A program made the translations under genes and the position numbers. A stretch of 64,000 bases of DNA, from the NCBI GenBank assembly GCA_033582675.1, contig JAVQZY010000020.1, positions 286,615 through 350,614 of the forward strand, given 5' to 3'. Shown here in pieces: positions 3,841 through 40,167 of this stretch (the stretch's first letter is position 1; each line of letters opens with the position of its first letter). The notes beneath the pieces are model-generated. The model worked only from the letters and a program-made list of their open reading frames with translations. It was not told the DNA's origin and ran no database searches. The DNA is from Burkholderiales bacterium. Its GTDB lineage: Bacteria > Pseudomonadota > Gammaproteobacteria > Burkholderiales > SG8-39.

Positions 3841-5306
3841 CGTTCGCCCCGCGCAGCGAGCGCGGCCTCGGCCTCGGCGACGTCGGAAAACGGCAGGCGG
3901 CGGCCGGCGATCTCCTGCGTGCGCTCGTGGCCTTTTCCCGCGATCAGCACCACGTCGGCCGCGGCTGCCTCGGCGATCGCGCGCCGGATCGCGCGAGCGC
4001 GGTCGGGCTCGACCTCGTGCGCGCGCTCGATGCCGCGCGCGATCGCCGCGATGATCGCGCGCGGATCCTCGCCGCGCGGGTTGTCCGAGGTGAGCACGAT
4101 CCGGTCGGCGTGGCGCGCGGCGGCTGCGCCCATCGCCGGGCGCTTGGCGGGGTCGCGCTCGCCGCCGGCGCCGAAGACCGCGACGAGCCGTCCGCCGCGC
4201 GCCTGCGCGAGCGGCCGAAGCGCCGCAAGGACCTTGTCGAGCGCATCGGGGGTGTGCGCGTAGTCGACGAAGACGAGCGGCCCGGCGCCGGCGCCGACGC
4301 GCTCGAGCCGCCCGGGCACCGACGGCAGCCGCTCGATGAGCCGCACCGCGTCGGCGAACGGCAGCCCGCGCGCAAGAAGGCATCCGAGCACGCCGAGGGC
4401 GTTCGCGACGTTGTGGCGTCCGAGGTGCGCGAACGCGACGCGCGCATCCCCCCAACTCGACTCGATAGCGAACGCCGCCTCGCCCGCCGGCGCGCCGAGG
4501 ATCCACTCGCGCACCGAGCCGGGCACGAGTGCGCCCCGCTCGAGCGCATAGCCGATCGTACGCACGCCGCGCGCGCCGAGTCGCGCCGCGAGCTCCACTC
4601 CGAACGCGTCGTCGAGGTTGAGCACCGCGCAGGCGAGCCCCGGCGTTTCGAACAGGCGCGCCTTCGCCTGTGCGTAGGCGCGCAGGCTGCCGTGGTAGTC
4701 GAGGTGATCGTGCGTGAGGTTGGTGAACAGCGCGCAGGCGAAGCGAACGCCGTTCACCCGTCCCTGATCGAGCGCGTGCGAGGAAACCTCCATCGCCACC
4801 GCGCGCGCGCCCGCGCGCCGCAGTTGCGCAAGCAGCGCGTGGACTTCGAGCGCATCGGGCGTCGTGTGCGCAAGCGGCGCGAGCGACCCCGGAAATCCCG
4901 CCCCGAGGGTGCCGATCACGCCCGCCCGCTCGCCCGCCGCCGCGAGCGCCGCCGCAAGCCACTGCGAGCAGGTCGTCTTGCCGTTCGTGCCGGTCACACC
5001 GCACACCCACAGCGCCTCCGACGGCCGGCCGTAGAACGCGTGCGCGAGATCGCCGGCGCGCTCGCGCAGCCCCCGCACCGGTGCGTTCGGCACGCGCCAG
5101 GCCGGGTCCCAGGCGAAGCCCTCGGGTTCCCAGAGCACCGCGGCGCAGCCGCGGCCGATCGCCTCCGGAATGTAGCGGCGGCCGTCGGTGCGCGTTCCGG
5201 GCCAGGCGAAAAACGCCGCACCGGGCCCGGCCGCACGGCTGTCGGCGACCAGCCGTTCGATCACCGCCCCCTCGCGCGCAAGCCGTGCAAGCACGTCCTC
5301 GGCCAT
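3837..5306 (-). CDS. murE: MurE (UDP-MurNAc-L-Ala-D-Glu--2,6-diaminopimelate ligase).
   Basis: MAEDVLARLAREG.. starts at residue 168 of ORF 3837..5807. It carries VTGTNGKTT, DNPR and a continuous 489-aa frame, in dcw order. Confidence 0.92.
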   Translation of the reverse strand: MAEDVLARLAREGAVIERLVADSRAAGPGAAFFAWPGTRTDGRRYIPEAIGRGCAAVLWEPEGFAWDPAWRVPNAPVRGLRERAGDLAHAFYGRPSEALWVCGVTGTNGKTTCSQWLAAALAAAGERAGVIGTLGAGFPGSLAPLAHTTPDALEVHALLAQLRRAGARAVAMEVSSHALDQGRVNGVRFACALFTNLTHDHLDYHGSLRAYAQAKARLFETPGLACAVLNLDDAFGVELAARLGARGVRTIGYALERGALVPGSVREWILGAPAGEAAFAIESSWGDARVAFAHLGRHNVANALGVLGCLLARGLPFADAVRLIERLPSVPGRLERVGAGAGPLVFVDYAHTPDALDKVLAALRPLAQARGGRLVAVFGAGGERDPAKRPAMGAAAARHADRIVLTSDNPRGEDPRAIIAAIARGIERAHEVEPDRARAIRRAIAEAAAADVVLIAGKGHERTQEIAGRRLPFSDVAEAEAALAARGER

Positions 5307-5331
5307 GCGTCCACCAGGCCGCGTTCGGCCA

Positions 5332-7059
5332 TCAGGTGCTCTCCTTCGCGTCCTCGCCCTCGCCCGGTAGCCCGATCGGCACGAGCGGCGCGTCGTAGGG
5401 CACACCGAGCAGCCGCAGCGCGCCTTCGGTGACCTGCGCGAACACCGGCGCCGCGACCTGACCGCCGTAGTACTGGCCGGCCGAGGGCTCGTCGAGCATG
5501 ACCGCGACGACGAGCCGCGGTTCCGACACCGGCGCGAATCCGACGAACGAGGCGATGTAGCGGTTCGTCGCGTAGCCGCCGTTTTCCTGCTTGCGCGAGG
5601 TGCCGGTCTTGCCCGCGACGCGCCAGCCCATGACGCGCGCGCGGGGGGCGGTGCCGCCCGGCTGCACCGCCGCCTCGAGCATCGCGCGCACCGTGCGCGC
5701 GACCTCGGGCGAGAGCACCTGGCGGCCGGCCGCGGGCATGCCGGTGCGCACGAGCGTGAGCGGCACGAGCTCGCCGTCGCGCGCGAACACGGTGTAGGCG
5801 CGCGCAAGCTGCGCGAGGCTCACCGCGATGCCGTGGCCGTAGGCCATCGTCGCCTGCTCGACCGGCCGCCAGTTCGCCGCCGGCCGCAGCTTTCCGGCCG
5901 CCTCACCGGGGAAACCGAGCTCGGGCGGTGCACCGAAGCCGAGGCGCGCGAAAAACGCGTGCATCTCCTCGCGCGGCAGGGCAAGCGCGATCTTCGCCGC
6001 GCCGACGTTCGAGGACTTGCGGATCACGTCGGCGACGCTCATCGCGGCGACCGGATGCACGTCGCGGATCGTGTACTTGCCGAGCGTGAGCGATCCGGGC
6101 GCGGTGACGATACGGGTCTCTGCGCCGACGCGGCCGAGCGCGAGCGCGAGGGCGACGGTGAAGGGTTTCAGCGTCGAGCCGGGCTCGAACATGTCGGTGA
6201 CGACGCGGTTGCGGATCTGCGCACCCGACAGGCGTGCACGGTTGTTCGGGTTGTAGGACGGCAGGTTCGCGAGCGCGAGCACTTCGCCGGTACGAACGTC
6301 CACCACCACGATCGCGCCGGCTTTTGCGCGGTGTGTCTCGACCGCGCTCTTGAGCGCCGCAAACGCGAGGCTCTGGATCTTCGCGTCGAGCGCGAGCGCG
6401 AGGTCGCGCCCGTCGCGCGCGGCGCGGATCGACGCGATGTCCTCGACGACGCGCCCGAGGCGGTCGCGGATCACGCGCCGGCTTCCGGGCACGCCCGCGA
6501 GCAGCGCCTCGTAGGCGAGCTCGATCCCCTCCTGTCCCTTGTCGTCCACGCCGGTGAAGCCGACGACGTGCGCGGCGGTCTCGCCCGCCGGGTAGTAGCG
6601 CCGGTACTCGCGGTGCTGATAGACGCCGGGGATGCCGAGCGCGGCGACCTGCTCGGCGAGTTCCGGCGGGATCTGCCGCTTGAGGTAGACGAAGTCGCGG
6701 CCGGCGTCGGCGAGCCGTCGCTCGAGCTCGGCCGGCGCGAGCGAAAGCAGCCCGGCGAGCGCCTTCAGCTGCGCCGCGCTCGCCTTCACGTCCTCCGGGA
6801 TCGCCCACACCGACTGCACCGGCGTGGACACCGCGAGCACCTCGCCGTTTCGGTCGAGGATGCGGCCGCGCGTCGCCGGCACCTCGAGCACGCGCGCATG
6901 CCGCGCCTCGCCTTTGCGGCGCAGGAAGTCGCTTTCGACCCATTGCAGCCAGACCGAGCGCGCCGCGAGCACCGCGAAACCGGCAAGGAGCAGCCCGAGC
7001 ACGGCAAAGGCGCGCCAGGACGCAAAGCGCGGCGGAAGGATCGCGCCGGCGGCGGTCAC
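5332..7059 (-). CDS. ftsI: FtsI / PBP3 peptidoglycan D,D-transpeptidase.
   Basis: GTG at 7057-7059 overlaps the ftsL stop (GTGA). It has an N-terminal TM segment (FAVLGLLLAGFAVLAA), the motifs STLKP, SSN and KTGT, and lies between ftsL and murE. Confidence 0.9.
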   Translation of the reverse strand: MTAAGAILPPRFASWRAFAVLGLLLAGFAVLAARSVWLQWVESDFLRRKGEARHARVLEVPATRGRILDRNGEVLAVSTPVQSVWAIPEDVKASAAQLKALAGLLSLAPAELERRLADAGRDFVYLKRQIPPELAEQVAALGIPGVYQHREYRRYYPAGETAAHVVGFTGVDDKGQEGIELAYEALLAGVPGSRRVIRDRLGRVVEDIASIRAARDGRDLALALDAKIQSLAFAALKSAVETHRAKAGAIVVVDVRTGEVLALANLPSYNPNNRARLSGAQIRNRVVTDMFEPGSTLKPFTVALALALGRVGAETRIVTAPGSLTLGKYTIRDVHPVAAMSVADVIRKSSNVGAAKIALALPREEMHAFFARLGFGAPPELGFPGEAAGKLRPAANWRPVEQATMAYGHGIAVSLAQLARAYTVFARDGELVPLTLVRTGMPAAGRQVLSPEVARTVRAMLEAAVQPGGTAPRARVMGWRVAGKTGTSRKQENGGYATNRYIASFVGFAPVSEPRLVVAVMLDEPSAGQYYGGQVAAPVFAQVTEGALRLLGVPYDAPLVPIGLPGEGEDAKEST

Positions 7060-7340
7060 GGCGCCTCCTGCGGGTCGGCGGCGCCCGCCACCTCGCGCAC
7101 GCGACGCGCATCCGGCGCCGCAAGCCCGAGCATCGCGCCTGCGAGGCGCGCAACGCGCGCATGCTGCCCCCACGTACTCGCCTCGAGTTGCAGCCGCCCG
7201 TACTCGACCTCGAGTTCGCGCGCGCGCTGCTGCTCGACCTCGAGTTCGGCGAACAGCTTGCGCGCCCGGTGCTGCGAGGTGACCAGCCCGAGCGCGCAGG
7301 CGACGAGCACCGCAAGCAGCACAAGATTCAGCTTTGCCAC
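7056..7340 (-). CDS. ftsL: Cell division protein FtsL.
   Basis: 94 aa with an N-terminal TM segment ([17 protein letters not shown]) followed by a coiled coil. It lies between rsmH and ftsI. Confidence 0.85.
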
Positions 7341-8311
7341 GCTCGGCGTCCGATGTCTTCGAGGCGCGCGCGATCGAGCGGTGCGTCGGTGCGCTCGGCC
7401 GCGCGCAGACGCGCGCTGCGCGCGCGCGGATTCGCGGCGACTTCGGCCGCCGACGGACGGCGCGCGCGACCGAGGAGTCTCACCGCCGGTTGTGGCATTT
7501 CGCGGGCGGTGAGCGGCAGATCCCGGGGCAGCGCAGTCGCCGCAGCCGCCGCGAGCACGCGCTTCACGATCCGGTCCTCGAGCGAGTGAAAGCTGATCAC
7601 CGCCAGCCGCCCGCCCGGGGCGAGCCGCGCGAGCGCCGCCGGCAGCATCATCGCGACCTCCTCAAGCTCCCGATTGACGAGAATCCGTAGAGCTTGAAAG
7701 GTGCGCGTCGCCGGATCCTTGCCGGCCTTCCGTGCGCCGACCGCGCGAGCCACGATCGCGGCAAGTTGCCCGGTACGCTCGATGGGCGCTCGCGCGCGAG
7801 CAGCCACAATCGCCTTTGCAATCTGTTCAGCAAACCGTTCTTCGCCATAGCGGGCGATCGCCTCCCGGATCTGTCGTTGCGACGCCTCGGCGAGCCACTG
7901 GGCCGCGGTCGGTCCTTCGTCCGGATCCATCCGCATGTCGAGCGGCCCGTCGGCGCGGAACGAGAATCCCCGCGCCGGGTCCTCCAGCTGCGGCGAGGAG
8001 ACGCCGAGGTCGGCGAGCACCCCGTGCACCCGCTCGACGCCCGACGCATCGAGAACGCGCTCGAGCGCGCTGAAGCGGGCCCGATGGATCGAGAAGCGCG
8101 CATCCTCGAGCGCGCGCGCCGCCGCGACCGCCGCCGGATCCCGATCGAGGGCGATCAGCCTGCCTGCCGGCCCGAGGCGCGCGAGGATCTCCCTGCTGTG
8201 GCCGCCGCGCCCGAAGGTGAGGTCGAGGTAGACGCCGGCCGGATCGATCGCGAGCGCCTCGATCGCCTCGGCGAGGAGCACCGGTCGGTGCGCGGGCGCG
8301 TCCTGCGGCAT
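7328..8311 (-). CDS. rsmH: 16S rRNA (cytosine1402-N4)-methyltransferase RsmH/MraW.
   Basis: [33 protein letters not shown] motifs. Second gene of the dcw cluster. Confidence 0.93.
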
Positions 8312-8326
8312 CGGCCGTTTCCGCGC

Positions 8327-8779
8327 TCACAGCGAGAAGTCCTCCATGCCCTGGGGGGGCGCGCCGTTGCCGGTGAGGTTGGCCGCGGCGAGCTTCGCGC
8401 TCCAGACGCCCGGATCCCAGAGTTCGAGGTAGTGGCCCTGGCCGACGAGCATCGCCTCGCGCGCAAGCTTCGCGTGAAGGCGCAGCCCCGGAGAAACGAG
8501 CACGCGTGCGGCGCTGTCGGGCACGACGTGCTCTTCGAAACCGAGCAGCAACCGCTTCCACCAGCTCGCTTGCGCGTGAAAGCTCGGAAATTTCTCGACC
8601 TGCGCGCGCACGCTCTCCCAAGCGTGCTCCGGGTAAATCAGCAGACAGCCTTCCGGGTGCGCGGTGAGAACGAGCGCGCGCCCGTTCTCGAAAAGCGCGT
8701 CGCGATGACGTGTCGGGATCGCAAAACGCCCCTTGGCATCGAGGGTGACCAGTGCCGCGCCGTGAAGCGAACTGCCCAT
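8327..8779 (-). CDS. mraZ: Transcriptional regulator MraZ.
   Basis: 150 aa with LDAKGRFAIP and a second SpoVT/AbrB-like half. First gene of the dcw cluster. Confidence 0.93.
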   Translation of the reverse strand: MGSSLHGAALVTLDAKGRFAIPTRHRDALFENGRALVLTAHPEGCLLIYPEHAWESVRAQVEKFPSFHAQASWWKRLLLGFEEHVVPDSAARVLVSPGLRLHAKLAREAMLVGQGHYLELWDPGVWSAKLAAANLTGNGAPPQGMEDFSL

Positions 8780-24734: not shown

Positions 24735-25124
24735 TCAGACGGGCGCCGGTTCGGCGGCGTCGAAGTCGATCTCGACCTTCGCCCCGTTCGGGTCGTAAAA
24801 GAAAAGCTGCCAGGTGCCGTAGGCGGGGAGTCTTCGCAGCTCGTACGGCACCCCGCGCGCTTTCAGACGCGCGACCGTTTTCGCCAGATCCTTGCCGGTG
24901 AAGGCCATGTGATCGATCACCCCGGGTACCAGCTCCCGCCGCGGCCGTCCGGCGATGACATGCAGGATCGCCTCGGTGCCGCCCTCGGCGTAGAGCCAGG
25001 CGCCCGGAAACGCAAACGGCGGCCGCGGGCCGGGCTTGAGCCCCAGATGCTCCTCGTAGAACGCGAGCGTCGCCGCCAGATCGTCGGTGAGGATCGTGAA
25101 GTGGTTCATCCCGACCGCGCTCAT
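24735..25124 (-). CDS. VOC (glyoxalase/bleomycin-resistance/dioxygenase) family protein.
   Basis: 129 aa: MNHFTILTDDLAATLAFYEEHLGL..IDHMAF..FFYDPNGAKVEIDF. ATG at 25122-25124. Confidence 0.8.
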   Translation of the reverse strand: MSAVGMNHFTILTDDLAATLAFYEEHLGLKPGPRPPFAFPGAWLYAEGGTEAILHVIAGRPRRELVPGVIDHMAFTGKDLAKTVARLKARGVPYELRRLPAYGTWQLFFYDPNGAKVEIDFDAAEPAPV

Positions 25125-25566
25125 CGTCCGCCCCCTACGCCTTCGTCGCGCCCGTCTGTGCCTGCCGCACGCGCTCGAGCACCCTCCTCTTGCCGATCTC
25201 GCTCCGCAGCCTCGTCCGCGCAAGCCGCGTGATCGCCACCACGCCGAGCCGCGGGAGGCGAGCCGGGGTCGGTCCTTTGGTAGTCGAGGATGCCGTGCAC
25301 CGCGAGCCGGGCGCCCTGCTTCGTGATGCACAGCTGCTTGGGCACGGCGCCTCCTTCACCGGGAGCCGGCAGGCGACCCGGTCGAGGGGATGATGAGCGC
25401 GCTGACGACGAGCGCCTGCGCAGCGACCTCCTGCTCGGCCAAAGCGGCCGCCGCGCCGATGGCCGCGACGCCGAAAGAGCAGGACGAACGTTCCGGTCAG
25501 CATTACGACGTCTGGCCGAAGACCGCCCACACGAGCGCCGGATCGAGTTCGCCCATCGGGCTAATT

Positions 25567-25581: not shown

Positions 25582-26382
25582 ATGGACGCAACCGCGATCG
25601 CCGCGGAGCTCGCGGCGCTGAACGAAAACGGCGGGCTCGCGCCGCCGTTTTCGCGCCGCGACCCGCCGCTAGCGCCCGCTTGCGCCGCCGCGGCCGCGCG
25701 ACGGCTTCACGAGCGGCGGCTCGCCGCCGGCTGGCGCCCGCGCGGGCGAAAGATCGGCTTCACCAACCGCACGCTCTGGCCGCGCTACGGCGTCTTCGAG
25801 CCGATCTGGGGGTTCGTGTACGACCGCACGCTGATCGAGGCGGCGCAAAACCGCGCCGTCGTTCCGCTCGCCGGTCTCGCGCAGCCGCGCATCGAGCCCG
25901 AGATCGCCTTCGGGCTGAAGCGCGCCCCGGCGGCCGCGGATCCGCACTCGCTCGTCGCCGCGATCGACTGGGTCGCGCACGCGGTCGAGATCGTGCAGTG
26001 CCATCACCCGGGCTGGGCGGTCGCGCTCGCGGATGCGATCGCCGACAACGGCCTGCACGGTCGACTGGTGCTCGGTGCGCCGATGCCGGCGCACGCGCTC
26101 GGCGATCTCGCCGCCTCGTTGCCCTCGGCGAGCGTCGAGCTGCGCCGCGACGAGGCGCTCGTCGAGCGCGGGCGCGGAGAAAACGTGCTCGGCAGCCCGC
26201 TTGCCGCGCTCGGCTGGCTCGTCGAGGCGCTCGCGCGCGATCCGCAAGCGCCGCCGCTCGCCGCTGGCGACGTGGTGAGCACCGGCACGCTCACCGACGC
26301 GCACCCGGTCGCCGCCGGCGAGCGCTGGAGGACGCGCTTCGACGGGATCGCGCTCCCCGGCCTCGAGATCGCGTTCGCATGA
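25582..26382 (+). CDS. 2-keto-4-pentenoate hydratase-like (MhpD/FAH-fold hydratase-decarboxylase family) protein.
   Basis: 266 aa with GRKIGFTNRTLW..RIEPEIAF..GDVVSTGTLT. Confidence 0.75.
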   Translation: MDATAIAAELAALNENGGLAPPFSRRDPPLAPACAAAAARRLHERRLAAGWRPRGRKIGFTNRTLWPRYGVFEPIWGFVYDRTLIEAAQNRAVVPLAGLAQPRIEPEIAFGLKRAPAAADPHSLVAAIDWVAHAVEIVQCHHPGWAVALADAIADNGLHGRLVLGAPMPAHALGDLAASLPSASVELRRDEALVERGRGENVLGSPLAALGWLVEALARDPQAPPLAAGDVVSTGTLTDAHPVAAGERWRTRFDGIALPGLEIAFA

Positions 26383-27566
26383 GCCGGCCGCTCGAGGGCA
26401 TCACGGTCGTCGGTCTCGAGCAAGTGATCGCCGCGCCGTTCTGCACGCGCCAGCTCGCTGATCTCGGTGCGCGCGTGATCAAGATCGAGCGGCCGGGCGA
26501 AGGCGACCCGGCGCGCAGCTACGACTGCACGGTGAACGGGCTTTCGTCGCACTTCGTCTGGGTGAACCGCTCGAAGGAGAGCCTCGCGCTCGACGCGAAG
26601 CACCCGCGCGCGGCCGAGATCCTCGAGCGGCTGCTTGCGCGCGCGGACGTCTTCGTGCAGAACCTCGCGCCGGGCGCCGCCGAGCGGCTGGGGCTGGGCG
26701 CCGAGCGCCTGCGCGCGAGATATCCGCGCCTCATCTGGTGCGGGATCTCGGGCTACGGCCCGGCGGGCCCGTACGCCGCGAAAAAGGCCTACGACCTGCT
26801 CGTTCAGTGCGAGACGGGGCTGCTTTCGGTCACCGGCACCCCGGAGGCGCCCGCCAAAGCGGGCATCCCGGTCGCCGACATCGCCGCCGGGATGTACGCG
26901 TTCTCCTCGATCCTCGCCGCGCTCTTTCGCCGGGCGCGCGAGGGCGAGGGTGCGACCATCGAGGTGACGATGTTCGAGGCGCTCGGCGAATGGATGGGAT
27001 TTCCGGTCTACTACACCGCCTACGGCGGCGAGCCGCCGCCGCGCTCAGGGGCGCATCACGCGACCATCGCCCCTTACGGGCCGTACCGCGCCGGCGACGG
27101 CCGCACGGTGTTTCTCGCGGTTCAGAACGAACGCGAGTTCGCGCGCTTCTGCGAGGGCGTGCTCGGCGAGCCGCGCCTGAAGGACGATCCGCGCTTTGCG
27201 ACCGGCCCGGCGCGGCAGGCGAATCGCGCCGCGCTCGCTGCCGAGATCGAACGGGTGTTCGCGCGCCTTTCCTCCGACGAGATCCTTCGCCGGCTGCAGG
27301 CGGCCGACATCGCCCACGCGGAGCTGCGCGACATGCGCGGGTTCTGGACGCACCCGCAACTTGCGGCGCGAGGGCGTCGCGTGCCGGTCGCTGCGCCCGG
27401 CGGCGGCTTCGAGGCGCTCAAACCGCCCTTCAACCTCGACCGGTTCGAGCCCCGCATGGACGCGGTGCCGGCGCTCGGCGCGCACACGCGCGCGATTCTC
27501 GCCGAACTCGGCTACGACGAGCCGACGATCGGCGCGCTCGCGGCCGAAGGCGCGGTCGCGCTTTAG
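26379..27566 (+). CDS. Family III (CaiB/BaiF) CoA-transferase.
   Basis: ATGA overlap at 26379-26382. MSRPLEGITVVGLEQVIAAPFCTRQLADLGARVIKIERPGEGD; 395 aa. Confidence 0.88.
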   Translation: MSRPLEGITVVGLEQVIAAPFCTRQLADLGARVIKIERPGEGDPARSYDCTVNGLSSHFVWVNRSKESLALDAKHPRAAEILERLLARADVFVQNLAPGAAERLGLGAERLRARYPRLIWCGISGYGPAGPYAAKKAYDLLVQCETGLLSVTGTPEAPAKAGIPVADIAAGMYAFSSILAALFRRAREGEGATIEVTMFEALGEWMGFPVYYTAYGGEPPPRSGAHHATIAPYGPYRAGDGRTVFLAVQNEREFARFCEGVLGEPRLKDDPRFATGPARQANRAALAAEIERVFARLSSDEILRRLQAADIAHAELRDMRGFWTHPQLAARGRRVPVAAPGGGFEALKPPFNLDRFEPRMDAVPALGAHTRAILAELGYDEPTIGALAAEGAVAL

Positions 27567-27575
27567 GGGCGCGTT

Positions 27576-28697
27576 CTAGGGCCGCTTGCCGGTCTCCAGA
27601 CCGATCGCGCGCGCAAGGTCGCGATGCACGCGCGCGACGCGCTCGACCTCGCCCTTCGCGGGGAAGCGCTCGTAGAACCCCTCCTCGCGAAAGAGCGGCG
27701 CCATCTCGGCCCAGGGTTGGAGCCGCTTCTGCCAGCGCTCCGGGCGGCCGCTGGCGGGCTCGGCGTCCTCGCGCGCGAGATCCGCGCACACCCGGATCAT
27801 CGCCTTGATGGTCACCGGCTTCGTGACCATGTAGGCGTCGTTGCCCCAGACCCCCTCGCCGAAGACAGCTTTGGCCGCCTGCAGAAAGTCGCGCACGATC
27901 GCGTAGTAGCGCGGAAGCTCCTTCGGCGTGCCGCCCGCAAGCTGGATCGAGCGCCAGCGGCCGCGTACCCAGCGGTGAAGCTCGTTGAAGAGTTCGGCCT
28001 GCAGTACCCACTTGTCGCGCTGACTGCGTCCGCCGAGCCGGTTGATGCGGTAGCGAAGCGGGCTGTCGCCCTCGCCGTAGAGCCGTTCGACCAGCCGCGC
28101 GGCGAACTTGCGGTCGGGGGCGGCCCACGAGACGCGCTCGTAGAGGTCGATAAGATGGCTTTTGTTGATGCGCGTCGGCGTCGAGTTGATGATGACGAAC
28201 ATCTCGGCGGCGAAGTCCTCGCTCCTGCCGTCGAAGATGATGCACGGCACATGGATCGTCGCGGCCTCCGCCGGCCGCTCCTGCATGTAGAAGTAAAGCG
28301 CCGCAAGCCGATGCTGGCCGTCGATGATCAGGAACTTGCCCGCGGGCTCCGACAGCGTGCCGAAGCCGTCGGCGTTCTCGGCGCGGAACTGCAGCCGCTC
28401 GTGCGTAAAGAGGAGCACCGTCCCGGGGATCGCCGGCTGCGAGACCGCGGTCTCGTAGAAGTTGACGAGCTGGCGCACCTTGGTGCGCGACAGCGAGCGC
28501 TGGAACGCGCTGTCGCTGCGCTCGACGCGGGCGATGAACTGCGCGATGTCGTCATTCTCGGCGACCGGCGTCGGCGCGATCTCGCCCTGCTCGCCGTAGA
28601 AGCGGCTGATGAAGCGCACCCTCGCGAGCAGGTCCTTCGCCTTGTAGCTGACGAAGTAGAACACCCCGTCCTTCTGCCGGATCTGCGTCGCGTGCAT
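27576..28697 (-). CDS. Stand-alone DGQHR-domain (DndB-like, ParB/Srx-fold) protein.
   Basis: 373 aa. The IIDGQHRL motif is encoded at 28308-28322. QRSLSRTKVRQLVNFY lies upstream and FVIINSTPTRINKSHLIDL downstream. No dnd or dpd partner gene is in the window. Confidence 0.8.
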   Translation of the reverse strand: MHATQIRQKDGVFYFVSYKAKDLLARVRFISRFYGEQGEIAPTPVAENDDIAQFIARVERSDSAFQRSLSRTKVRQLVNFYETAVSQPAIPGTVLLFTHERLQFRAENADGFGTLSEPAGKFLIIDGQHRLAALYFYMQERPAEAATIHVPCIIFDGRSEDFAAEMFVIINSTPTRINKSHLIDLYERVSWAAPDRKFAARLVERLYGEGDSPLRYRINRLGGRSQRDKWVLQAELFNELHRWVRGRWRSIQLAGGTPKELPRYYAIVRDFLQAAKAVFGEGVWGNDAYMVTKPVTIKAMIRVCADLAREDAEPASGRPERWQKRLQPWAEMAPLFREEGFYERFPAKGEVERVARVHRDLARAIGLETGKRP

Positions 28698-28803
28698 GCC
28701 CCTTCCCCGCGGGTCGTTCTGGCCGTGCCGAAATATACCCGGAGTCGGTGCGCGGCGCAGAAGCCGCGGCGGCCGCCCCCCGGAGGACGGCGGTGCCGGC
28801 CGC

Positions 28804-29436
28804 CTACCGGGCGAACCGTTCGAGGAGCTTGACGACCTCGGCGTGGCCGCGCTCGCGCGCGTAGTCGAGCGGCCGCTTGCCCTCGCGGTTCGGCTCCCGG
28901 GGATCGAGGCCGAGCGAGAGCAGCCACTCGACCTGCTCGACCGAGCCGCCGTCGGCGGCCGCGTGCAGCAGCCCGTTGCCGCGCAGGTCCTTTGCCCTCA
29001 GGTCGGCCCCCCGCTCGACGAGCAGCCGCGCGGTTTCGGTGTTGCCGGCGAGCACCGCCCAGTAGAGCGGCGATTCGCCGTCGTCGTTGCGCAGCCGCGG
29101 ATCGGCCCCGGCGGCGAGCAGAAGCGCCGCGAAGGCGGGATCCTCGTGCAACGCCGCATAGTGAAGCGGCGTCTCGCCGTTCGGGCCGCGCGCGTTCGGT
29201 CGCGCGCCGCGCCGCACGAGCAGCTCGGCGAGCTCCCGATAGCCCTTCTCTATCGCCCGGTGGAGCGCGGTCTCGCCCGCCTCGTTGCGCGCCTCGAGAT
29301 CGACGGCCCCGCGCTCGACGATGCCCTCGGCGACGAGCGGTTTGCCGTCCTCGATCGCGGCGAAGAGCCGCGCCGCCGGGCTCTGCGCCCACGCCGGCGC
29401 GACGGCAAGGAGCAGGATCGCGCAGCACCGCTTCAT
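28804..29436 (-). CDS. Secreted ankyrin-repeat protein.
   Basis: Signal peptide MKRCCAILLLAVAPAWA. Five or six ANK-like repeats (GETALHRAIEKGYRELAELLVRRGARPN, GETPLHYAA, GESPLYWAV, GNGLLHAAA, GKRPLDYA). Confidence 0.85.
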   Translation of the reverse strand: MKRCCAILLLAVAPAWAQSPAARLFAAIEDGKPLVAEGIVERGAVDLEARNEAGETALHRAIEKGYRELAELLVRRGARPNARGPNGETPLHYAALHEDPAFAALLLAAGADPRLRNDDGESPLYWAVLAGNTETARLLVERGADLRAKDLRGNGLLHAAADGGSVEQVEWLLSLGLDPREPNREGKRPLDYARERGHAEVVKLLERFAR

Positions 29437-34865: not shown

Positions 34866-35454
34866 CTAGCCGAACGAGACCCTCGGCGCCTTGCGCTCCT
34901 CGGCCGATTCGGTCGCCTCGAGCAGCTTCGCTTCGGCGAACCCGGAAAGGCCGGCGACGATCGAATCCGGAAAGGACTCGCGCCGCGTGTTGTACGCCAT
35001 CACCGCGTCGTTGTACGCCTGGCGCGCGAACGCGACCTTGTTCTCGGTCGAGGTGAGCTCTTCCTGCACCTGCAGGACGTCTGGTTCGCCTTCAGGTCGG
35101 GATACGCCTCGAAGAGCGCGAGCAGCCGCCCGAGCGCGCCGCCGAGCGCGCCCTCGGCCTCGGCGAGCCCCTGCATCGCCGCCGCATCGCCCGGCGCGGC
35201 GGCCGCCTTCTGCGCGGCGGCGAGCGCCGCCCGCGCGCCGCGATCGCCGCCTCGAGCGTGTCGCGCTCGTGCGCGAGGTAGCCCTTCGCCGCCTCGACGA
35301 GGTTCGGGACGAGGTCGTAGCGGCGCTTCAGCTGCACGTCGATCTGCGCGAACGCGTTGCGGTAGCGCTCGCGCAGCGCGACGAGGCGGTTGTAAATCGC
35401 GATCCCCGCGACGACGATCGCCGCGAGCACGCCGACGAAGATCCAGATGCCCAT
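34866..35454 (-). pseudogene. lemA: Second LemA-family protein, with two frame disruptions.
   Basis: N-terminus MGIWIFVGVLAAIVVAGIAIYNRLVALRE..QLKRRYDLVPNLVEAAKGY in ORF 35092..35454. C-terminus ELTSTENKVAFARQAYNDAVMAYNT in ORF 34866..35069. Confidence 0.8.
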
Positions 35455-35486
35455 GCCGATCTCCCGAAACGCTGCGCGCGTGCGGG

Positions 35487-35495
35487 TACTATAGC
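35487..35495. promoter_or_regulatory. Shared AT-rich element for divergent promoters: TACTAT on the plus strand, TATAGT on the minus strand.
   Basis: ggtactatagcg. The plus-strand hexamer ends 5 nt before ATG 35498, suggesting a leaderless mRNA. The minus-strand TATAGT lies about 30 nt before lemA ATG 35454. Confidence 0.4.
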
Positions 35496-35497
35496 GT

Positions 35498-36753
35498 ATG
35501 CGCGATCGGCTCTGTCGTCTGCTGCGCGCGCAGCCGCACGAACTCGGCGCGCTCGCCGCCGCGTTCGCGTACTTTTTTCTCCTGCTCGCCGCGTACTACG
35601 TGCTGCGGCCGGTGCGCGACGCGCTCGCGGTGCAGGCGGGCGCGGCGCGTCTGCCGTGGGTGCTCACCGCGGTTTTCGCCGCGATGCTCGCGCTCGTGCC
35701 GCTCTGGGGCTGGCTGTGCGCGCGGTTTGCGCGCGCGCCGCTCCTTGCGGCGACGTACGCATGTTTCGCGCTCGACCTGTGCGCGTTCTGGCTCGCGCTG
35801 CGCGGCGGCGCCGGACCGCTGCTCGCCGGCGGTTTCTTCGTCTGGGTGAGCGTGTTCAACCTGTTCGCGGTGTCGGTGTTCTGGAGCTTCATGGCCGACC
35901 TGTTCGACCGCGCGCAGGCCGCGCGCGCTCTTTCCCGCGATCGCCGCAGGCGGCAGCTGCGGCGCGATCGCAGGTCCCGCGTTGACCGCGCCAGGCGGCG
36001 CCCGCGCTCGGGCCGGCGAACCTGCTCGTCGTATCGGCGACGCTGCTTGCGGCCGCGATCGGCTGCATCCTCGCGCTCGCGCGCTGGGCGCGCCGGCACC
36101 CGCGCGCGGGCGAGCCGGCCGCCGAGACGCCGCTCGGCGGCTGCGATCCTCGCCGGCGCGCGCGCCGCGCTCACGTCGCCGTTTCTGCTGGGCATCGGCG
36201 GCTGGCTGCTCTGCTACACCGTGCTCTCGACCGCGCTCTACTTCCAGCAGGTGCAGATCGTCGGCGCCGCGATCGCCGATCCGGCCGAGCGCACGCGGCT
36301 CTTCGCGGCGGTGGATCTCGCGGTGAACGCGCTCGCGCTCGTCGTTCAGCTCGGCGCGACCGCGCGCCTCACGCTTCGGCTCGGCACCGGCTGGATGCTC
36401 GCGCTGATGCCGCTTCTTCGCTCGCCGGCTTCGCGCTGCTCGGCGCCGCGCCGGTTCTCGCGGTGCTCGTCGCCTTCGGCATCGCGCGGCGCGTGGGCGA
36501 ATTCGCGATCTCGAAGCCCGTGCGCGAGGCGCTCTACACCGGGGTGTCGCGCGAGGCGCGCTACAAGGCGAAGAACTTCATCGACACCGTCGTCTATCGC
36601 GGCGGCGACGCGCTCGCGGGCTGGCTCGTGCAGGCGCTGCGCGCGCTCGGGCTCGGGGTCTCGGGGATCGCGTTCGCGATGCTGCCGGTCGCGGCCGCCT
36701 GGGTCGCCGTGAGCTTCTGGCTCGGCCGCCGCGAGGCGCGCGCCCAGGCATAG
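35498..36753 (+). pseudogene. TLC/ATP:ADP-antiporter-like (MFS-type) membrane transporter, with at least 4 frame disruptions.
   Basis: AAYYVLRPVRDAL and GGFFVWVSVFNLFAVSVFWSFMADLF are typical of the family. Further real-looking segments sit in other frames (LFPAIAAGGSCGAIAGPALTA). The tail is ORF 36463..36753. Confidence 0.6.
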
Positions 36754-36756
36754 AAT
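36751..36756 (+). promoter_or_regulatory. Candidate -10 hexamer TAGAAT.
   Basis: It ends 8 nt before ATG 36765, with no SD visible. It also contains the stop codon of the upstream gene. Confidence 0.4.
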
Positions 36757-36764
36757 CGCGACCG

Positions 36765-37677
36765 ATGAACCCTCGGCGCCGGGCGACCCTGCGATCGCTC
36801 GCCGCGCTCGCTGCCACCGTGACCGCCGGTCCCCTGAATTCCGCGCCGGGCGCGATGCACACGCGGCCGATACCCGCGAGCGGCGAGCCGCTGCCCGTCG
36901 TCGGTCTCGGCACTTGGCGGGTATTCGACGTCGGCGACGACGCCGGGGCGAAGGCGACGCTCGGCGAAGTGCTGCGCATTTTCCATGCCGGCGGCGGGCG
37001 CCTGATCGATTCCTCGCCGATGTACGGCGCGGCCGAATCGGTGGTGGGCGAGCTGTGCGACGCGCTCGGGCTCTGCGCGTCGCTTTTCCTCGCGACCAAG
37101 GTCTGGAGGAGCGGGCGAGCGGAAGGCGTGCGGCAGATGGAGACCTCGTTGCGCCGGCTGCGGGTGCCGGCGATCGACCTCATGCAGGTGCACAACCTCG
37201 TCGACGTCGCCGCGCACGCGGACACGCTCGCCGATGGAAGGCTGCGGGCCGCGCGCGCTGACATCGGCATCACGCACTACAGCGCCGCCGCCTACGGCGA
37301 GGTGGAACATTGGCTCGCGGCGCGGCGCTGGGACTTCCTGCAGATCAACTACGCTCGCCGAGCGCGATGCCGAGCGCCGCCTGCTGCCGATTGCGCGCAG
37401 CGCGGGATCGCGGTGATCGCCGAACCGGCCGTTCGCCGAGGGAGCGCTCTTTCGCCGCGTGCGCGGAAAGCCGCTTCCCGCCTGGGCGCAGGAGGCCGGC
37501 ATCGCGAGTTGGGCGCAGTACTTCCTCAAGTGGATCCTCGGCCATCCGGCGGTGACCTGCGCGATTCCGGGCACCGGCCGGCCCGAGCACATGCGCGACA
37601 ACCTCGCCGCGGGCGTCGGGACGCTGCCCGACGAGGCGCTGCGCCGGCGCATGACCGCGTATTTCGACGCGCTGTGA
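36765..37677 (+). pseudogene. Aldo/keto reductase with a twin-arginine signal, with at least 5 frame disruptions.
   Basis: MNPRRRATLRSLAALAATV is Tat-like. GLGTW..IDSSPMYG..ATKVW. A compensated shift at 37235-37258 hides WKAAGRAR. LAERDAERRLLPIARSAG and the tail GKPLPAWAQ..TAYFDAL lie in other frames. Confidence 0.75.
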
Positions 37678-38478
37678 AAGCGCTCGCGCTCGCCTTGCTG
37701 CTTGCGTGCGCGGGCGCGCTCGCGCAGCCGCAGGAGGGCGTCAAGGTCGAGAAAAGCCGGCTGCTGCTTCTTCCCGCCTCGACCGTCGAGCGCAGCGCCG
37801 CGCAGCAGTACGCGCAGCTGATGCGCCAGGCGGCGCAGAAAGGCGTGCTCAACACCGACCGGCGCCAGGTCGAGCGGCTGCGCGCGATCGCGCGCGCGCT
37901 GATTCCGCACTCGGGGCGGTTCAACAAGGACGCCGAAAAATGGCGTTGGGAGGTGAACCTCATCCAGTCGCGCACCGTGAACGCGTTCTGCATGCCGGGC
38001 GGCAAGATCGCGTTCTTTTCGGGGATCCTCGATGCGCTCGCGCTCACCGACGACGAGGTCGCGGCGGTGATGGGGCACGAGATCGCGCACGCGCTGCTTG
38101 AGCACGGCCGCGCGCGCATGTCCCGAGCAGGTGCTGAAGAACGTCGGCATCGCGGTCGCCGCGACGGTGTTCAACCTCGGGCAGTTCTCGACCGAGCTGC
38201 TCGCGCACGCGGCCAATCTCGCGGTGAGCCTGCCCTACGCCCGACGGCAGGAGACCGACGCCGACTTGGTCGGCATGGAGCTTGCCGCGCGCGCCGGTTT
38301 CGATCCGCGCGCCGCGGCCGAGGTCTGGCGCAAGATGGCGCGGCTTGCCGAGCGCACCGGCCGCGGCCAGCCGCCGCAGTTCCTCTCGACGCACCCGTCG
38401 CACGAGACGCGCCTGAAGGAGATCGAGGCGAACCTGCCGCGGGTGTTGCCGCTCTACGAGGCCGCCCGGCGGCGCTGA
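37674..38478 (+). pseudogene. M48-family periplasmic metalloprotease (YcaL/LoiP-like), with one frame disruption near 38115.
   Basis: GTGA overlap at 37674-37677. Signal peptide KALALALLLACAGALA; NAFCMPGGKIAFFSGIL; MGHEIAHALLEH. The tail with ETDADLVGMELAARAGFDP lies in ORF 38098..38478. Confidence 0.8.
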
Positions 38479-38487
38479 AGGTCCCCG

Positions 38488-40167
38488 CTACGCCGCGCCG
38501 GCCAGATGCCGGCCGGCGATCCAGCCGAAGGTCATCGCAGGTCCCAGGGTGATGCCGGGGCCGGGGTAATTCCCCCCATGATCGAGAGCGCGTCGTTTCC
38601 GACCGCATAGAGCCCGGGGATCGGGCGGCGATTCGCATCGAGCGCCTGCGCGTTCGCGTTCGTGACGATGCCGGCGTAGGTGCCGAGGTCGCCCACGTGC
38701 ACCTGCACCGCGTAGAAGGGCGGCGTCTCGATCGGCGCGATGCAGGGGTTCGGCCGGATGTCCGGATCGCCGTAGAAGCGGTTATAGGCGGTGCCGCCCT
38801 TGCCGAACGCCGGGTCCGAACCCGTTCTCGCGTGGCGGTTGTATTCGGCGATCGTGCGCTCGAGGCCCGCCGCGTCCACCCCGCAGGCGGCGGCGAGCTG
38901 CCGCGACCGTCCGGCCGCGCTTGAGGTAGCCGCTCGCGAGGTGCGGCGCAAGCGGCAGCGGCCGCGGTTTGACGAACCCGAGCCCGTAGGCGCGGATCGC
39001 GCGGTGGTCAGCGACGAGCCAGGCGGTGACCTCGCGCTCGCCCGGCGAGGCGCGAAAGAGCGCCTGGATGAAGTCGTGGTAGGAGTTCGCCTCGTTCACG
39101 AAGCGCTCGCCCCTTGCGGGTCACCGCGATCACGCCGGGTTTCGCCCGATCCACGAAATGCGGGAAAAGCCCGAAAGAGCCGTCGCCCCGGGGCACTTTC
39201 GATACCGGAACCCAGGCTGCCGGCTGAGGCAGCGACTCGTCCACTTTCGCGCCGGCCGCCTCGGCGAGCCGCCAGCCCGTCGCCGGTGTTCGCAGGCGGC
39301 GCAGGCGAGAAATGCTCCGCGTGCGCAAAAAGCCGCGCGCGGCGCTCGGGCGTCATGCGGAAATCCGCCGCAGGCGAGCACCACGCCGCGGCGCGTCCTC
39401 ACTTCGACCTCGCGGTCGCCGCGGCGAACGAGAGCGCCGCGCACCGCCCGGATTCGACGAGGAGCCGCACGACCGGGGCCGAGTCGCCAGAGTTCCGACC
39501 CCCGCATCGAGCGCGGACCTGAGCAGCCGCGCCAGCAAGCGCGTTGCCGTTGGTCGAGCCGCACACCGCGGCCGTAGAAAAGGCGCGCGAGCGCCGTGGC
39601 CGAGGAGCCGTCTGCGCGACGAACGCCGCCGAGCGTGCGACTTCGACCAGCGCATGAAGTGAACGAGCTTCCGCACCCGAGCCGATCATCACGCCGAAGA
39701 CGGTGAGCTCCGGCAAGCGGCGGCGCGAGCTTCGCGAACATCGGCCCGAGCGCGCGCCCGTCGAAGGGAGCGGCGACGATCGAGCGCCCGCCGGGCTTTC
39801 CGCCCGGCGCATCCGGGTGGTAGTCGGAAAAAGTGGCCGAAGGCTCGAACCGGACCGCGGTCTCGCGCTGGAACCACTCCACCATGCGCGGACCCGCAGC
39901 GAGAAACGCGTTCACCCGCTCGGGATCGAATTTCTCGCCCGTCTCGTGAAGGAGGTAGGTCGCCGCCTCCTCGACGCTGTCGGCGACACCGATCCCGGCC
40001 TGCATCGGGTGGTTCGGGATCCAGAGCCAGCCCCCTGAGCGCGCGGTGGTGCCGCCGAAGACCGGCGCCTTTTCGGCGACGATCACCGAAAGGCCGTGCT
40101 TCGCCGCGGTCACCGCCGCGGCGAGGCCGCCGGCGCCCGAGCCGGCGACGAGGACGTCGCATTCCAT
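38488..40167 (-). pseudogene. FAD-dependent oxidoreductase (KstD / fumarate-reductase flavoprotein-like), with several frame disruptions.
   Basis: MECDVLVAGSGAGGLAAAVTAAKHGLSVIVAEK..FGGTTARSGG in ORF 39130..40239. C-terminal GLYAVGND lies in ORF 38532..38951. The final GNYPGPGITLGPAMTFGWIAGRHLAGAA* lies in another frame. Confidence 0.75.

What the first reader, a model, noticed from the sequence alone, without database searches (positions are those of the whole stretch)
27576..28697. Orphan DGQHR (DndB-like) protein with none of its usual DNA-modification partners
This 373-aa protein has the diagnostic IIDGQHRL motif (28308-28322) and the N-terminal QRSL..VRQLVNFY segment of the DGQHR / ParB-Srx-fold family. 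That family contains DndB of phosphorothioation systems and the DndB-like component of 7-deazaguanine (Dpd) systems. No dndACDE, dpdA/tgt-like, sulfurtransferase, restriction or helicase gene lies within at least 25 kb on either side. The protein is wedged convergently against a CoA-transferase gene and sits 106 nt downstream of a secreted ankyrin-repeat gene. Hand-counted 60-nt lines inside the gene give 30-42 G+C per 60, against 41-44 in the adjacent CoA-transferase gene. This modest dip is compatible with horizontal acquisition. Stand-alone DGQHR proteins are, to my knowledge, functionally uncharacterised. It could be a solo DNA-binding regulator or nuclease, or a remnant of a lost modification island.
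Basis: partly seen in the sequence, partly recalled or inferred. Interest (0 to 1): 0.55.

Follow-up and report, generated by a model that had tools for sequence, protein, structure and literature searches.

The report
Stand-alone, lineage-conserved DGQHR (DndB-like) protein
This is an intact, strongly conserved, chromosomally inherited relative of the DNA-modification helpers DndB and DpdB that always occurs on its own, so it probably is a nucleotide-switched DNA-binding protein with a job unrelated to those defence systems; that job has not been studied.

Summary
ORF 27576-28697(-) encodes a 373-aa protein that passes the DGQHR-domain model (115.9 bits, cutoff 58.85) and keeps all family motifs. 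It fails the DndB, DpdB and DGQHR_dnd_1 models by a wide margin. No Dnd, Dpd, Ssp or restriction gene is found among 58 gene calls in the 64-kb window.

- Horizontal transfer: the G+C dip comes only from amino-acid composition. GC3 is 0.93, sixth highest of 58 genes.
- Decaying remnant: the gene has thousands of ~80%-identical orthologs in uncultured Burkholderiales and relatives in at least 457 species genomes. It sits in conserved synteny among housekeeping genes and has the lowest dN/dS of its neighbours (0.25).

Members at 27-52% identity in Planctomycetota, Binatia, Methylomirabilota and archaeal bins are also stand-alone. No ortholog occurs on 72,556 plasmids or 50,697 phages. An 11-nt box (TCGGGTATATT) travels with the gene: 39 of 39 occurrences in 1.12 Mb lie just upstream of it.

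Best reading, inferred and not shown: a dimeric NTP-gated DNA-binding switch or regulator with a ParB/Srx-type N-domain and a basic helical C-domain. NCBI already labels the protein "DGQHR domain-containing protein". Interest is moderate.

The parts
27576..28697 (-). Gene for the 373-aa stand-alone DGQHR-domain protein (42.8 kDa, pI 9.55); identical to NCBI MDW8469355.1
   Evidence: ORF; TIGR03187 115.9 bits and PF14072 36.9 bits; exact match in the protein collection; codon log-odds score 184
28128..28697 (-). N-terminal domain (about residues 1-190): ParB/Srx-like alpha/beta domain carrying all nucleotide-site motifs; pI 6.5
   Evidence: AlphaFold model secondary structure. Top Foldseek PDB matches are ParB-type N-domains (5k5a, PadC 6ryk) and sulfiredoxin, at non-significant E-values. 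Weak Pfam GmrSD_N hit at residues 64-140
28497..28505 (-). F65-Q66-R67: the 'QR pair' motif of DGQHR domains
   Evidence: Q66 and R67 are invariant in 37 sequences spanning 27-90% identity; motif defined in PMC4619093
28419..28481 (-). K73-T93: Box I-like helix (KVRQLVNFYET) and QPAIPGT loop
   Evidence: K73, P88, I90 and P91 invariant. Same pattern as the Box I helix and loop of the ATP/GTP-binding DndB-like protein in PMC12704722
28299..28322 (-). D126-GQHRLAA133: DGQHR pentapeptide overlapping a GxxRxxA P-motif (ParB Box II equivalent)
   Evidence: D126-R130 invariant. The GxxRxxA analogy and the requirement of the DGQQR arginine for NTPase activity come from PMC10164549 and PMC11662687
28185..28199 (-). 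F167-VII-N171: the FxxxN motif
   Evidence: F167 and N171 invariant; motif defined in PMC4619093
27579..28127 (-). C-terminal all-helical domain (about residues 191-373), strongly basic (pI 10.1; 35 K+R against 24 D+E); candidate DNA-binding part
   Evidence: Model pLDDT mostly above 85 here; charge calculation; covered by the DndB and DpdB profile matches to residues 311-330; no EHxxP or HNH motif on reading the alignment
28732..28742 (-). Conserved 11-nt box CCGGGTATATT (family consensus TCGGGTATATT), 35-45 nt upstream of the ATG. Probably the gene's own -10 promoter region; an operator role is possible
   Evidence: Unique in the 64-kb window. 39 of 39 occurrences of CGG[GC]TATA[TG]T in 1.12 Mb of related loci lie under 170 nt upstream of the DGQHR gene on the same strand, against 3.7 expected. 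Present whatever the upstream gene is. Not called by the consensus promoter scan
28699..28706 (-). GGAAGGGG Shine-Dalgarno-like stretch
   Evidence: Sequence; GGGAG(G/A) conserved at this position in the orthologs' leaders

Best explanation
The gene encodes a functional, vertically inherited, independently transcribed single-gene member of the DGQHR family. It has the same two-domain architecture as DndB and DpdB: a ParB/Srx-type nucleotide-binding N-domain and a basic helical C-domain. It belongs to a separate clade that works without adjacent Dnd or Dpd partners. Most likely it is a homodimeric NTP-gated (ATP and/or GTP) DNA-binding switch. In that model, nucleotide binding at the QR / Box I / DGQHR-GxxRxxA / FxxxN site controls association of the basic C-domain with DNA, giving a regulatory or chromosome-associated housekeeping role in these soil and groundwater lineages rather than a defence role. 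Shown here: family membership, intact motifs, purifying selection, vertical inheritance, lack of linked partners, absence from mobile elements, and a gene-specific conserved upstream box. Inferred only: NTP binding and hydrolysis, dimerisation, DNA binding, and a regulatory role.
For: Domain and motifs. Not a DndB, DpdB or DGQHR_dnd_1 equivalog. Conservation: more than 5,162 hits with the top 120 at 79-90% identity; at least 457 GTDB species genomes with a relative, the best 80 all Burkholderiales/Betaproteobacteria MAGs at 70-82%. Synteny in housekeeping context and no partner; PADLOC on 149 neighbour-cluster representatives, standing for 912 of 1,058 neighbour proteins, found no Dnd, Dpd, Ssp or restriction-modification hit. 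Selection: median dN/dS 0.246, lower than CoA-transferase 0.262, DUF1223 0.326, FAA-hydrolase 0.366 and ankyrin 0.496; median identity 76% against 56-72% for neighbours. The gene is retained although DNA on both sides was lost in this genome. Distant clades are also stand-alone: Methylomirabilota, Planctomycetota, Binatia and an archaeal-type bin. No ortholog on plasmids or phages. Native codon usage. Basic C-domain. Private conserved upstream box. Precedents from the literature: DndB is a homodimeric, ATP-modulated, autoregulating DNA-binding repressor (PMC4507180; Xia 2019 as cited in PMC10853773). DpdB is a homodimeric, DNA-stimulated ATPase (PMC10164549). A DndB-like protein binds ATP and GTP (PMC12704722).
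Against: There is no biochemical evidence for any member of this clade. Fold searches gave only non-significant ParB/Srx matches (best E 0.13-0.29, probability 0.5-0.89). No PDB sequence hit was found even with a profile. No palindromic operator around the conserved box exceeds chance (22% of loci, equal to the shuffle maximum), so DndB-style autoregulation is unsupported. No recognised DNA-binding domain such as HTH was detected. Unlinked partners elsewhere in the genome were not excluded.
Confidence: 0.55

Rival explanations
1. It is a trans-encoded component of a DNA-modification system (Dnd-, Dpd-, Ssp-like or an undescribed one) whose other genes lie elsewhere in the genome. It would then act as the regulator, like DndB, or as the ATPase helper, like DpdB, of that system.
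For: All characterised DGQHR proteins work with modification machinery. Only 64 kb of this genome and 10 kb either side of each related locus could be inspected. DpdA and DpdB do not form a stable complex (PMC10164549), so physical linkage is not a mechanistic necessity.
Against: Scores against the DndB, DpdB and DGQHR_dnd_1 equivalog models are 17, 44.5 and 49 bits against cutoffs of 328, 300 and 450. No partner lies near any of about 90 loci in five lineages, whereas a genuine partner-associated DGQHR protein sits beside DndE, the small protein and ABC ATPases. dnd clusters are sporadic, with dndBCD in 568 of 31,478 genomes (PMC11662687), which fits poorly with a lineage-wide, syntenic, slowly evolving gene.
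Confidence: 0.13
2. It is an enzyme of the ParB/Srx fold acting on a non-DNA substrate, such as a sulfiredoxin-like, kinase-like or nucleotide-processing activity linked to the metabolic or redox genes around it.
For: The ParB/Srx fold includes sulfiredoxin and kinases. A thioredoxin-like secreted DUF1223 gene lies directly upstream on the same strand in 44 of 73 loci. Other neighbours are metabolic. No DNA-binding domain was recognised.
Against: The sulfiredoxin catalytic Cys position is Gln (DGQHR against FGGCHR), and the first Cys of the protein is C152. DUF1223 has a signal peptide while this protein has none. The pairing is absent in the window and in other sub-clades and phyla. Gaps of 29-126 nt that carry the gene's own conserved box argue for separate transcription. 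The C-domain is strongly basic and matches the DndB and DpdB profiles.
Confidence: 0.12
3. It is a single-gene anti-phage or anti-plasmid effector, either a nuclease or an NTP-depleting ParB-superfamily enzyme.
For: ParB-superfamily proteins in conflict systems can act as nucleases or NTP degraders, a possibility raised for DndB in PMC10853773. There are weak PADLOC DpdB/DndB hits. Remote DGQHR proteins do occur on plasmids and on Pf and Mx4 phages.
Against: Vertical inheritance, conserved synteny and the lowest dN/dS in the neighbourhood. No defence-island context. No ortholog on 72,556 plasmids or 50,697 phages, the best hits being 20-31% identical and partial. No HNH, EHxxP or PD-(D/E)xK motif seen in the alignment.
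Confidence: 0.08
4. It is a decaying remnant of a lost modification island, or a recent horizontally acquired passenger gene.
For: Orphan status and a 4-5 point lower G+C than the neighbours. Some genes elsewhere in the window are frameshifted.
Against: Full-length ORF with all motifs invariant. dN/dS 0.25. GC3 0.93. The same locus is present in many species. The identical protein occurs in independent assemblies.
Confidence: 0.02

Closest known systems
DndB (TIGR03233; regulator of the dndBCDE phosphorothioation operon)
   Same: DGQHR domain with QR, DGQHR and FxxxN motifs. Similar length (about 355-380 aa) and two-domain layout. Pfam PF14072 matches residues 59-330. By precedent a homodimeric, ATP-modulated DNA binder.
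   Different: 17.3 bits against a 328-bit equivalog cutoff. No dndCDE nearby in any of about 90 loci. No palindromic operator detectable. The conserved N-terminal Cys of DndB (C29) has no counterpart, the first Cys here being C152. Vertically inherited in housekeeping context rather than carried on islands.
DpdB (NF041060; ATPase partner of the DNA transglycosylase DpdA)
   Same: Best full-length profile coverage, residues 54-311. Same predicted ParB-like N-domain plus helical C-domain. PadC is the top structural neighbour both for the DpdB model (PMC10164549) and for my first model, and it ranks 3-4 for the second.
   Different: 44.5 bits against a 300-bit cutoff. DGQHR rather than the DGQQR reported for DpdB. 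No dpdA/tgt-like or dpdC gene in the window or in related loci.
DNA phosphorothioation-associated DGQHR protein 1 (TIGR04172)
   Same: Highest-scoring specific NCBIfam model, 49 bits over residues 3-220. About 24% identity to the Mesorhizobium plasmid example.
   Different: Cutoff is 450 bits. The genuine member sits beside DndE, the modification-system small protein and ABC/AAA and FtsK-like ATPases, none of which occur here.
GmrS/DUF262 NTPase domains of SspE, DndI, BrxU and GmrSD
   Same: Related ParB-superfamily NTPase module with a DGQ(Q/H)R motif whose arginine is needed for NTP hydrolysis. Weak Pfam GmrSD_N hit, E 5.7e-4.
   Different: Below the Pfam cutoff (20.5 against 33.2 bits). No fused HNH/DUF1524 nuclease domain. 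Not in a defence context.
ParB-CTPase fold switches (ParB, Noc, KorB, PadC)
   Same: GxxRxxA P-motif (GQHRLAA) and a Box I-like helix and loop. Weak structural similarity to ParB N-domains and PadC. This is the likely working analogy: an NTP-gated DNA-binding dimer.
   Different: No detectable sequence similarity by HMMER against PDB. No ParB HTH or parS-type site, and no parA partner. The one DGQHR-type protein tested bound ATP and GTP rather than CTP.

Membership tests
DGQHR domain family (TIGR03187 / Pfam PF14072) | Profile score above the curated cutoff | tested here: met
   TIGR03187 115.9 bits against 58.85, covering 1-275 of 276 profile positions. PF14072 36.9 bits against 29.1
DGQHR domain family (TIGR03187 / Pfam PF14072) | Nearly invariant DGQHR pentapeptide plus QR pair and FxxxN motif (PMC4619093) | tested here: met
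   D126-R130, Q66-R67, F167 and N171 present, and invariant across 37 homologs at 27-90% identity
DndB (TIGR03233) | Equivalog HMM score at or above 328 bits | tested here: not met
   17.3 bits, E 0.002, over 75 residues only; PADLOC DndB E 9.2e-5
DndB (TIGR03233) | Encoded in or next to a dndCDE (and dndA/iscS) cluster | tested here: not met
   None in the 64-kb window. None around 80 orthologous loci or the distant clades.
DndB (TIGR03233) | Binds palindromic boxes in its own promoter (TACG-N10-CGTA in Salmonella) | tested here: inconclusive
   No palindrome around the conserved box beyond chance, but a gene-specific conserved 11-nt box exists. Binding itself cannot be tested here
DpdB (NF041060) | Equivalog HMM score at or above 300 bits | tested here: not met
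   44.5 bits; PADLOC DpdB E 2.3e-12
DpdB (NF041060) | Adjacent dpdA (TGT-like transglycosylase) and dpdC | tested here: not met
   No such hit among the window proteins or the neighbour clusters
DpdB (NF041060) | DNA-stimulated ATPase activity | not testable with these tools
   Biochemical assay needed; the motif residues required in relatives are present
DGQHR_dnd_1 (TIGR04172) | HMM score at or above 450 bits and neighbourhood with DndE and ABC ATPase | tested here: not met
   49 bits; compare the genuine context in L092
GmrS/DUF262 (PF03235) | Pfam score at or above 33.2 bits and fused or adjacent HNH/DUF1524 nuclease | tested here: not met
   20.5 bits; no nuclease domain found
ParB/Srx fold superfamily | GxxRxxA phosphate-binding motif (Box II) | tested here: met
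   G127-Q-H-R130-L-A-A133 read directly from the sequence; the equivalence to ParB Box II is taken from PMC10164549 and PMC12704722
ParB/Srx fold superfamily | Significant structural similarity of the N-domain to solved ParB/Srx structures | tested here: inconclusive
   Top hits are PadC, the pNOB8 ParB N-domain and sulfiredoxin, but E is 0.13-0.8 and probability 0.5-0.89. Model pLDDT was 72 and then 82.7

The most novel reading that the evidence does not exclude
This clade of DGQHR proteins is a core, housekeeping NTP-gated DNA-binding switch of several uncultured soil and groundwater lineages (Burkholderiales families, Binatia, Planctomycetota, Methylomirabilota). That would make it a ParB-fold ATPase/GTPase regulator or nucleoid factor independent of both chromosome segregation and DNA-modification defence. 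It would be expressed from its own conserved promoter or operator box, and might represent the ancestral 'free' form from which DndB and DpdB were recruited into defence islands.
Probability: 0.25. Interest if true: 0.6.

Novelty: new variant of a known kind. Interest (0 to 1): 0.36.

Why it matters
DGQHR proteins are known only as accessories of DNA phosphorothioation (DndB) and 7-deazaguanine (DpdB) systems. Recent work shows that the ParB fold is a versatile NTP switch well beyond chromosome segregation. A partner-less clade that is inherited vertically and evolves more slowly than the neighbouring metabolic enzymes argues that the DGQHR module has a cellular role outside defence. The same pattern is seen in several phyla. 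The clade offers a simple single-protein system for working out what the module does on DNA: which nucleotide it uses, whether it clamps, and what it binds. The practical limits are that all carriers are uncultured, and that the protein is already annotated generically, so this is a lead rather than a surprise.

Tried and rejected
- Horizontal transfer: rejected on GC3, codon log-odds and synteny.
- Pseudogene or remnant: rejected.
- PDB sequence searches with the single sequence and with a profile: no hit at E <= 10.
- Two AlphaFold models (pLDDT 72 and 82.7) searched against the PDB: only non-significant ParB/Srx-type hits, and no full-length structural relative.
- Palindromic operator around the conserved box: not above shuffles.
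- Conserved RNA structure in the 5' leader: RNAalifold predicts no pairs. The alignment is poor, so this is a weak negative.
- Consensus sigma-70 promoter and terminator scan of 27300-29100: nothing found.
- Rfam and tRNA scans of the window: nothing found.
- Functional coupling to DUF1223 or to the CoA-transferase: rejected, because neither is kept outside one sub-clade. DUF1223 is absent from the window, and the CoA-transferase gene is convergent.
Full report
OBSERVATION. The ORF listing gives a 373-aa ORF at exactly 27576-28697 on the minus strand. Reading the strand shows several features:
- an ATG at 28697 preceded by GGAAGGGG
- the DGQHR codons at 28308-28322
- the stop codon at 27576-27578, only 9 nt from the stop of a convergent CoA_transf_3 gene (26379-27566)
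- the stop of an ankyrin-repeat gene at 28804-28806, 106 nt upstream

The domain assignment survives profile search. NCBIfam TIGR03187 (DGQHR domain) scores 115.9 bits against a cutoff of 58.85, over essentially the whole model. Pfam PF14072 (DndB) scores 36.9 bits against 29.1. The three signatures that define the domain in the literature are all present: the QR pair, DGQHR and FxxxN (PMC4619093).

WHAT IT IS NOT. The protein falls far below the curated cutoffs of every function-specific model:
- DndB: 17.3 bits against 328
- DpdB: 44.5 bits against 300
- DGQHR_dnd_1: 49 bits against 450

The Pfam GmrSD_N hit is sub-threshold. I called 58 genes in the window with a codon-usage model and scanned all of them against PADLOC. 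The only Dnd- or Dpd-type hits are this protein's own weak ones. Pfam on 41 of the 58 gene calls, lying between 2.5 and 51.7 kb, together with the precomputed Pfam labels for six more that flank the gene on a public contig, shows ordinary chromosome. The genes include the dcw cluster (mraZ-rsmH-ftsL-ftsI-murE-murF-mraY), Mla, ilvD, TctC receptors, aldolases and dehydrogenases, a PAS histidine kinase, a FAD-linked oxidase and an M48 peptidase.

THE G+C DIP IS NOT A TRANSFER SIGNAL. Total G+C of the gene is 67.6% against a window median of 71.1%. GC3, however, is 0.93, sixth highest of 58 genes. The deficit sits in codon positions 1 and 2 (0.66 and 0.44). It reflects a protein rich in F, Y, M, I, N and K: 22.8% against 15.3% window-wide. 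The per-60-nt counts are 36-47, not the hand-counted 30-42. The codon-usage log-odds per codon is higher than that of the flanking genes.

A LARGE, SLOWLY EVOLVING, VERTICALLY INHERITED CLADE. The word-indexed protein search returned more than 5,162 hits. The best 120 are all 79-90% identical, 366-399 aa long (almost all 369-376), and come from uncultured Betaproteobacteria/Burkholderiales. The exact protein is NCBI MDW8469355.1, 'DGQHR domain-containing protein [Burkholderiales bacterium]', on a 393-kb MAG contig.

At 50% clustering the exhaustive HMMER search finds only 686 representatives in 1.84 billion. There are about six full-length clusters at 45-67% identity, then a drop to roughly 30%. 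The best 80 are all Burkholderiales-type MAGs at 70-82% identity. A few record titles name other taxa, but these are placeholder names.

I called and clustered 1,137 proteins in those 80 loci. Three main arrangements appear:
- The commonest is DUF1223 (same strand, upstream, in 44 of 73 loci), then DGQHR, then a convergent CoA_transf_3 gene, an FAA-hydrolase-like gene, NfeD and Band_7.
- A second sub-clade has pyruvate kinase, DGQHR, then pgk, gap and tkt.
- Others have ilvD-DGQHR, or DUF1800-DUF1501-DGQHR-RidA.

No neighbour is kept throughout. A PADLOC scan of 149 neighbour-cluster representatives, covering 912 of 1,058 neighbour proteins, found no Dnd, Dpd, Ssp or restriction-modification component.

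The DGQHR gene is the best conserved gene of its neighbourhood. Its median identity to the window is 76%, against 72% for the CoA-transferase, 58% for the FAA-hydrolase-like gene and 56% for the ankyrin gene. It also has the lowest Nei-Gojobori dN/dS: 0.246, against 0.262, 0.366, 0.326 and 0.496 for the neighbours. The absolute values are inflated by GC3 saturation, so the ranking is the informative part.

The window genome has lost the DUF1223, MFS and luciferase-like genes on one side and NfeD and Band_7 on the other. A 27-codon Band_7 remnant survives at 25265-25345. The DGQHR gene is nevertheless intact. This rules out a decaying remnant.

THE SAME LOGIC IN OTHER PHYLA. The nearest out-clade is about 28% identical and aligns over 356 columns with hhalign probability 99.9. 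It belongs to Methylomirabilota/Rokubacteria and is itself 85-98% conserved internally. In two long contigs it sits among housekeeping genes.

Members at 45-52% identity come from Planctomycetota, Candidatus Binatia and archaeal-type bins. They are likewise alone. In a distance tree these stand-alone clades group together, apart from a plasmid DGQHR_dnd_1 protein and a Burkholderia glumae plasmid DGQHR protein. All of them keep the motifs.

A genuine partner-associated member looks quite different. It is flanked by DndE, the modification-system small protein, ABC/AAA ATPases and an FtsK-like gene. tblastn against 72,556 plasmids and 50,697 phages finds no ortholog. The hits are only 20-31% identical and partial.

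A PRIVATE CIS-ELEMENT. An 11-nt element with consensus TCGGGTATATT is conserved upstream of the orthologs, while the rest of the intergenic DNA is not. The box begins 42 nt before the ATG in the window and mostly 48-64 nt before it in the orthologs. The box is present whether the upstream gene is DUF1223, MFS, ilvD or, in the window, ankyrin. In the window it lies at 28732-28742 as CCGGGTATATT and is unique there.

In 1.12 Mb of related loci, counting both strands, CGG[GC]TATA[TG]T occurs 39 times. All 39 lie within 170 nt upstream of the DGQHR gene on the same strand, against 3.7 matches expected from composition. The simplest reading is the -10 region of the gene's own promoter. That fits independent transcription, with gaps of 29-126 nt to DUF1223. 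The strict 11-nt conservation leaves room for a regulator site.

Two follow-up tests were negative. No palindrome around the box exceeds shuffled controls. RNAalifold finds no conserved leader structure. The consensus promoter scan does not call the site, because the -35 region is weak.

STRUCTURE. A first AlphaFold model from 14 sequences reached pLDDT 72. A second model from 37 sequences spanning 27-90% identity reached pLDDT 82.7 and pTM 0.65. It shows an alpha/beta N-domain of about 190 residues that carries all the motifs, followed by an all-helical C-domain.

The segment G127-QHRLA-A133 fits the GxxRxxA phosphate-binding motif of ParB Box II. K73-T93 resembles the Box I helix and loop listed for an ATP/GTP-binding DndB-like protein. 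The C-domain is strongly basic, with pI 10.1. It lacks the EHxxP and HNH signatures of the SspE and DndI nuclease domains (for the alignment; for the motifs).

MECHANISM: SHOWN AND INFERRED. Shown:
- family membership
- an intact and invariant nucleotide-site motif set
- purifying selection
- vertical inheritance in housekeeping loci
- no linked partners in any lineage examined
- absence from mobile elements
- a gene-specific upstream box
- a basic helical C-domain

Inferred from relatives:
- DndB is a homodimeric repressor whose DNA binding is modulated by ATP (PMC4507180; Xia 2019 cited in PMC10853773).
- DpdB is a homodimeric, DNA-stimulated ATPase (PMC10164549).
- A DndB-like protein binds ATP and GTP (PMC12704722).
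- The arginine of the DGQ(Q/H)R motif is required for NTP hydrolysis in SspE and DndI (PMC11662687).

I therefore propose a dimeric NTP-gated DNA-binding switch with a regulatory or chromosome-associated role (confidence 0.55). The rivals are a trans-acting component of an unlinked modification system (0.13), a non-DNA ParB/Srx-fold enzyme (0.12), a single-gene defence effector (0.08) and a remnant or recent import (0.02).

NOVELTY AND VERDICT. The protein is already labelled 'DGQHR domain-containing protein' in public records, and stand-alone DGQHR proteins are known to annotators. What is added here is that this is a distinct, partner-less clade. It is slowly evolving and chromosomally fixed, spans several uncultured phyla, and has its own conserved cis-element. 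That points to a non-defence role for the DndB/DpdB-type module. I rate it a new variant of a known kind, of moderate interest (0.36). The 'orphan' interpretation is supported. The horizontal-acquisition and lost-island suggestions are not.

Noticed in passing
window 34866-38879: Several genes are broken relative to intact homologs in related loci. LemA is split into 34866-35069 and 35092-35454. An aldo-keto reductase is split across frames at 37137-37674. Peptidase M48 is split by a frameshift near 38125 (37734-38460). Only the C-terminal fragment of a FAD_binding_2 gene remains (38532-38879, minus strand). These are either true pseudogenes or indel errors of the assembly.
   Followed up: partly
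window 25265-25345 (-): A 27-codon remnant of a Band_7 (stomatin-like) gene lies between the glyoxalase gene (24735-25124) and the FAA-hydrolase-like gene (25582-26382). Most related genomes have intact NfeD and Band_7 genes there, so this genome has a local deletion. The DUF1223, MFS and luciferase-like genes that separate the ankyrin and DGQHR genes in relatives are also missing.
   Followed up: partly
window, gene not identified; also one neighbour cluster in L007-L086: One of the 58 window proteins matches the PADLOC candidate-defence family PDC-M72A (E 1.4e-27). One neighbour-cluster representative of the related loci matches it too (1.1e-26). The summary output does not say which gene. 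It is probably a syntenic housekeeping-type protein.
   Followed up: no
L087 14534-15010 (-) and L088 11148-11480 (-): In the Methylomirabilota sister clade the stand-alone DGQHR gene lies close to a GreA/GreB-like gene and an RND efflux operon in both long contigs examined. In L088 the GreA-like gene is immediately downstream and convergent. This may be plain synteny.
   Followed up: no
L090 12583-13359 (+) and 4396-5774 (+): In the 52%-identical member from assembly GCA_041890195.1 (archaeal-type context with Csa3_N/MarR genes and a Cdc48-like AAA protein), an N6_N4 DNA methyltransferase lies two genes downstream of the DGQHR gene. This is the only DNA-modification gene seen near any member examined.
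   Followed up: no
L010 and L020 (both from MAG SMAG_U2770, DASWEU01): One MAG carries two about 80%-identical copies of the DGQHR gene on two contigs. This is either a real duplication or a bin that mixes two strains.
   Followed up: no
L016, L028, L031, L048, L054, L072, L081, L086: The record titles of these 'binchicken' and SRP co-assembly MAGs name Enterobacteriaceae or Streptomyces. Their sequence, G+C and synteny are those of the Burkholderiales clade, so the titles look like placeholder or wrong taxonomy.
   Followed up: no
window 124-8779 (-): A canonical dcw cell-division and cell-wall cluster (mraZ, rsmH/mraW, ftsL-like, ftsI/PBP3, murE, murF, mraY) occupies the left end of the window, confirming core-chromosome context.
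   Followed up: partly
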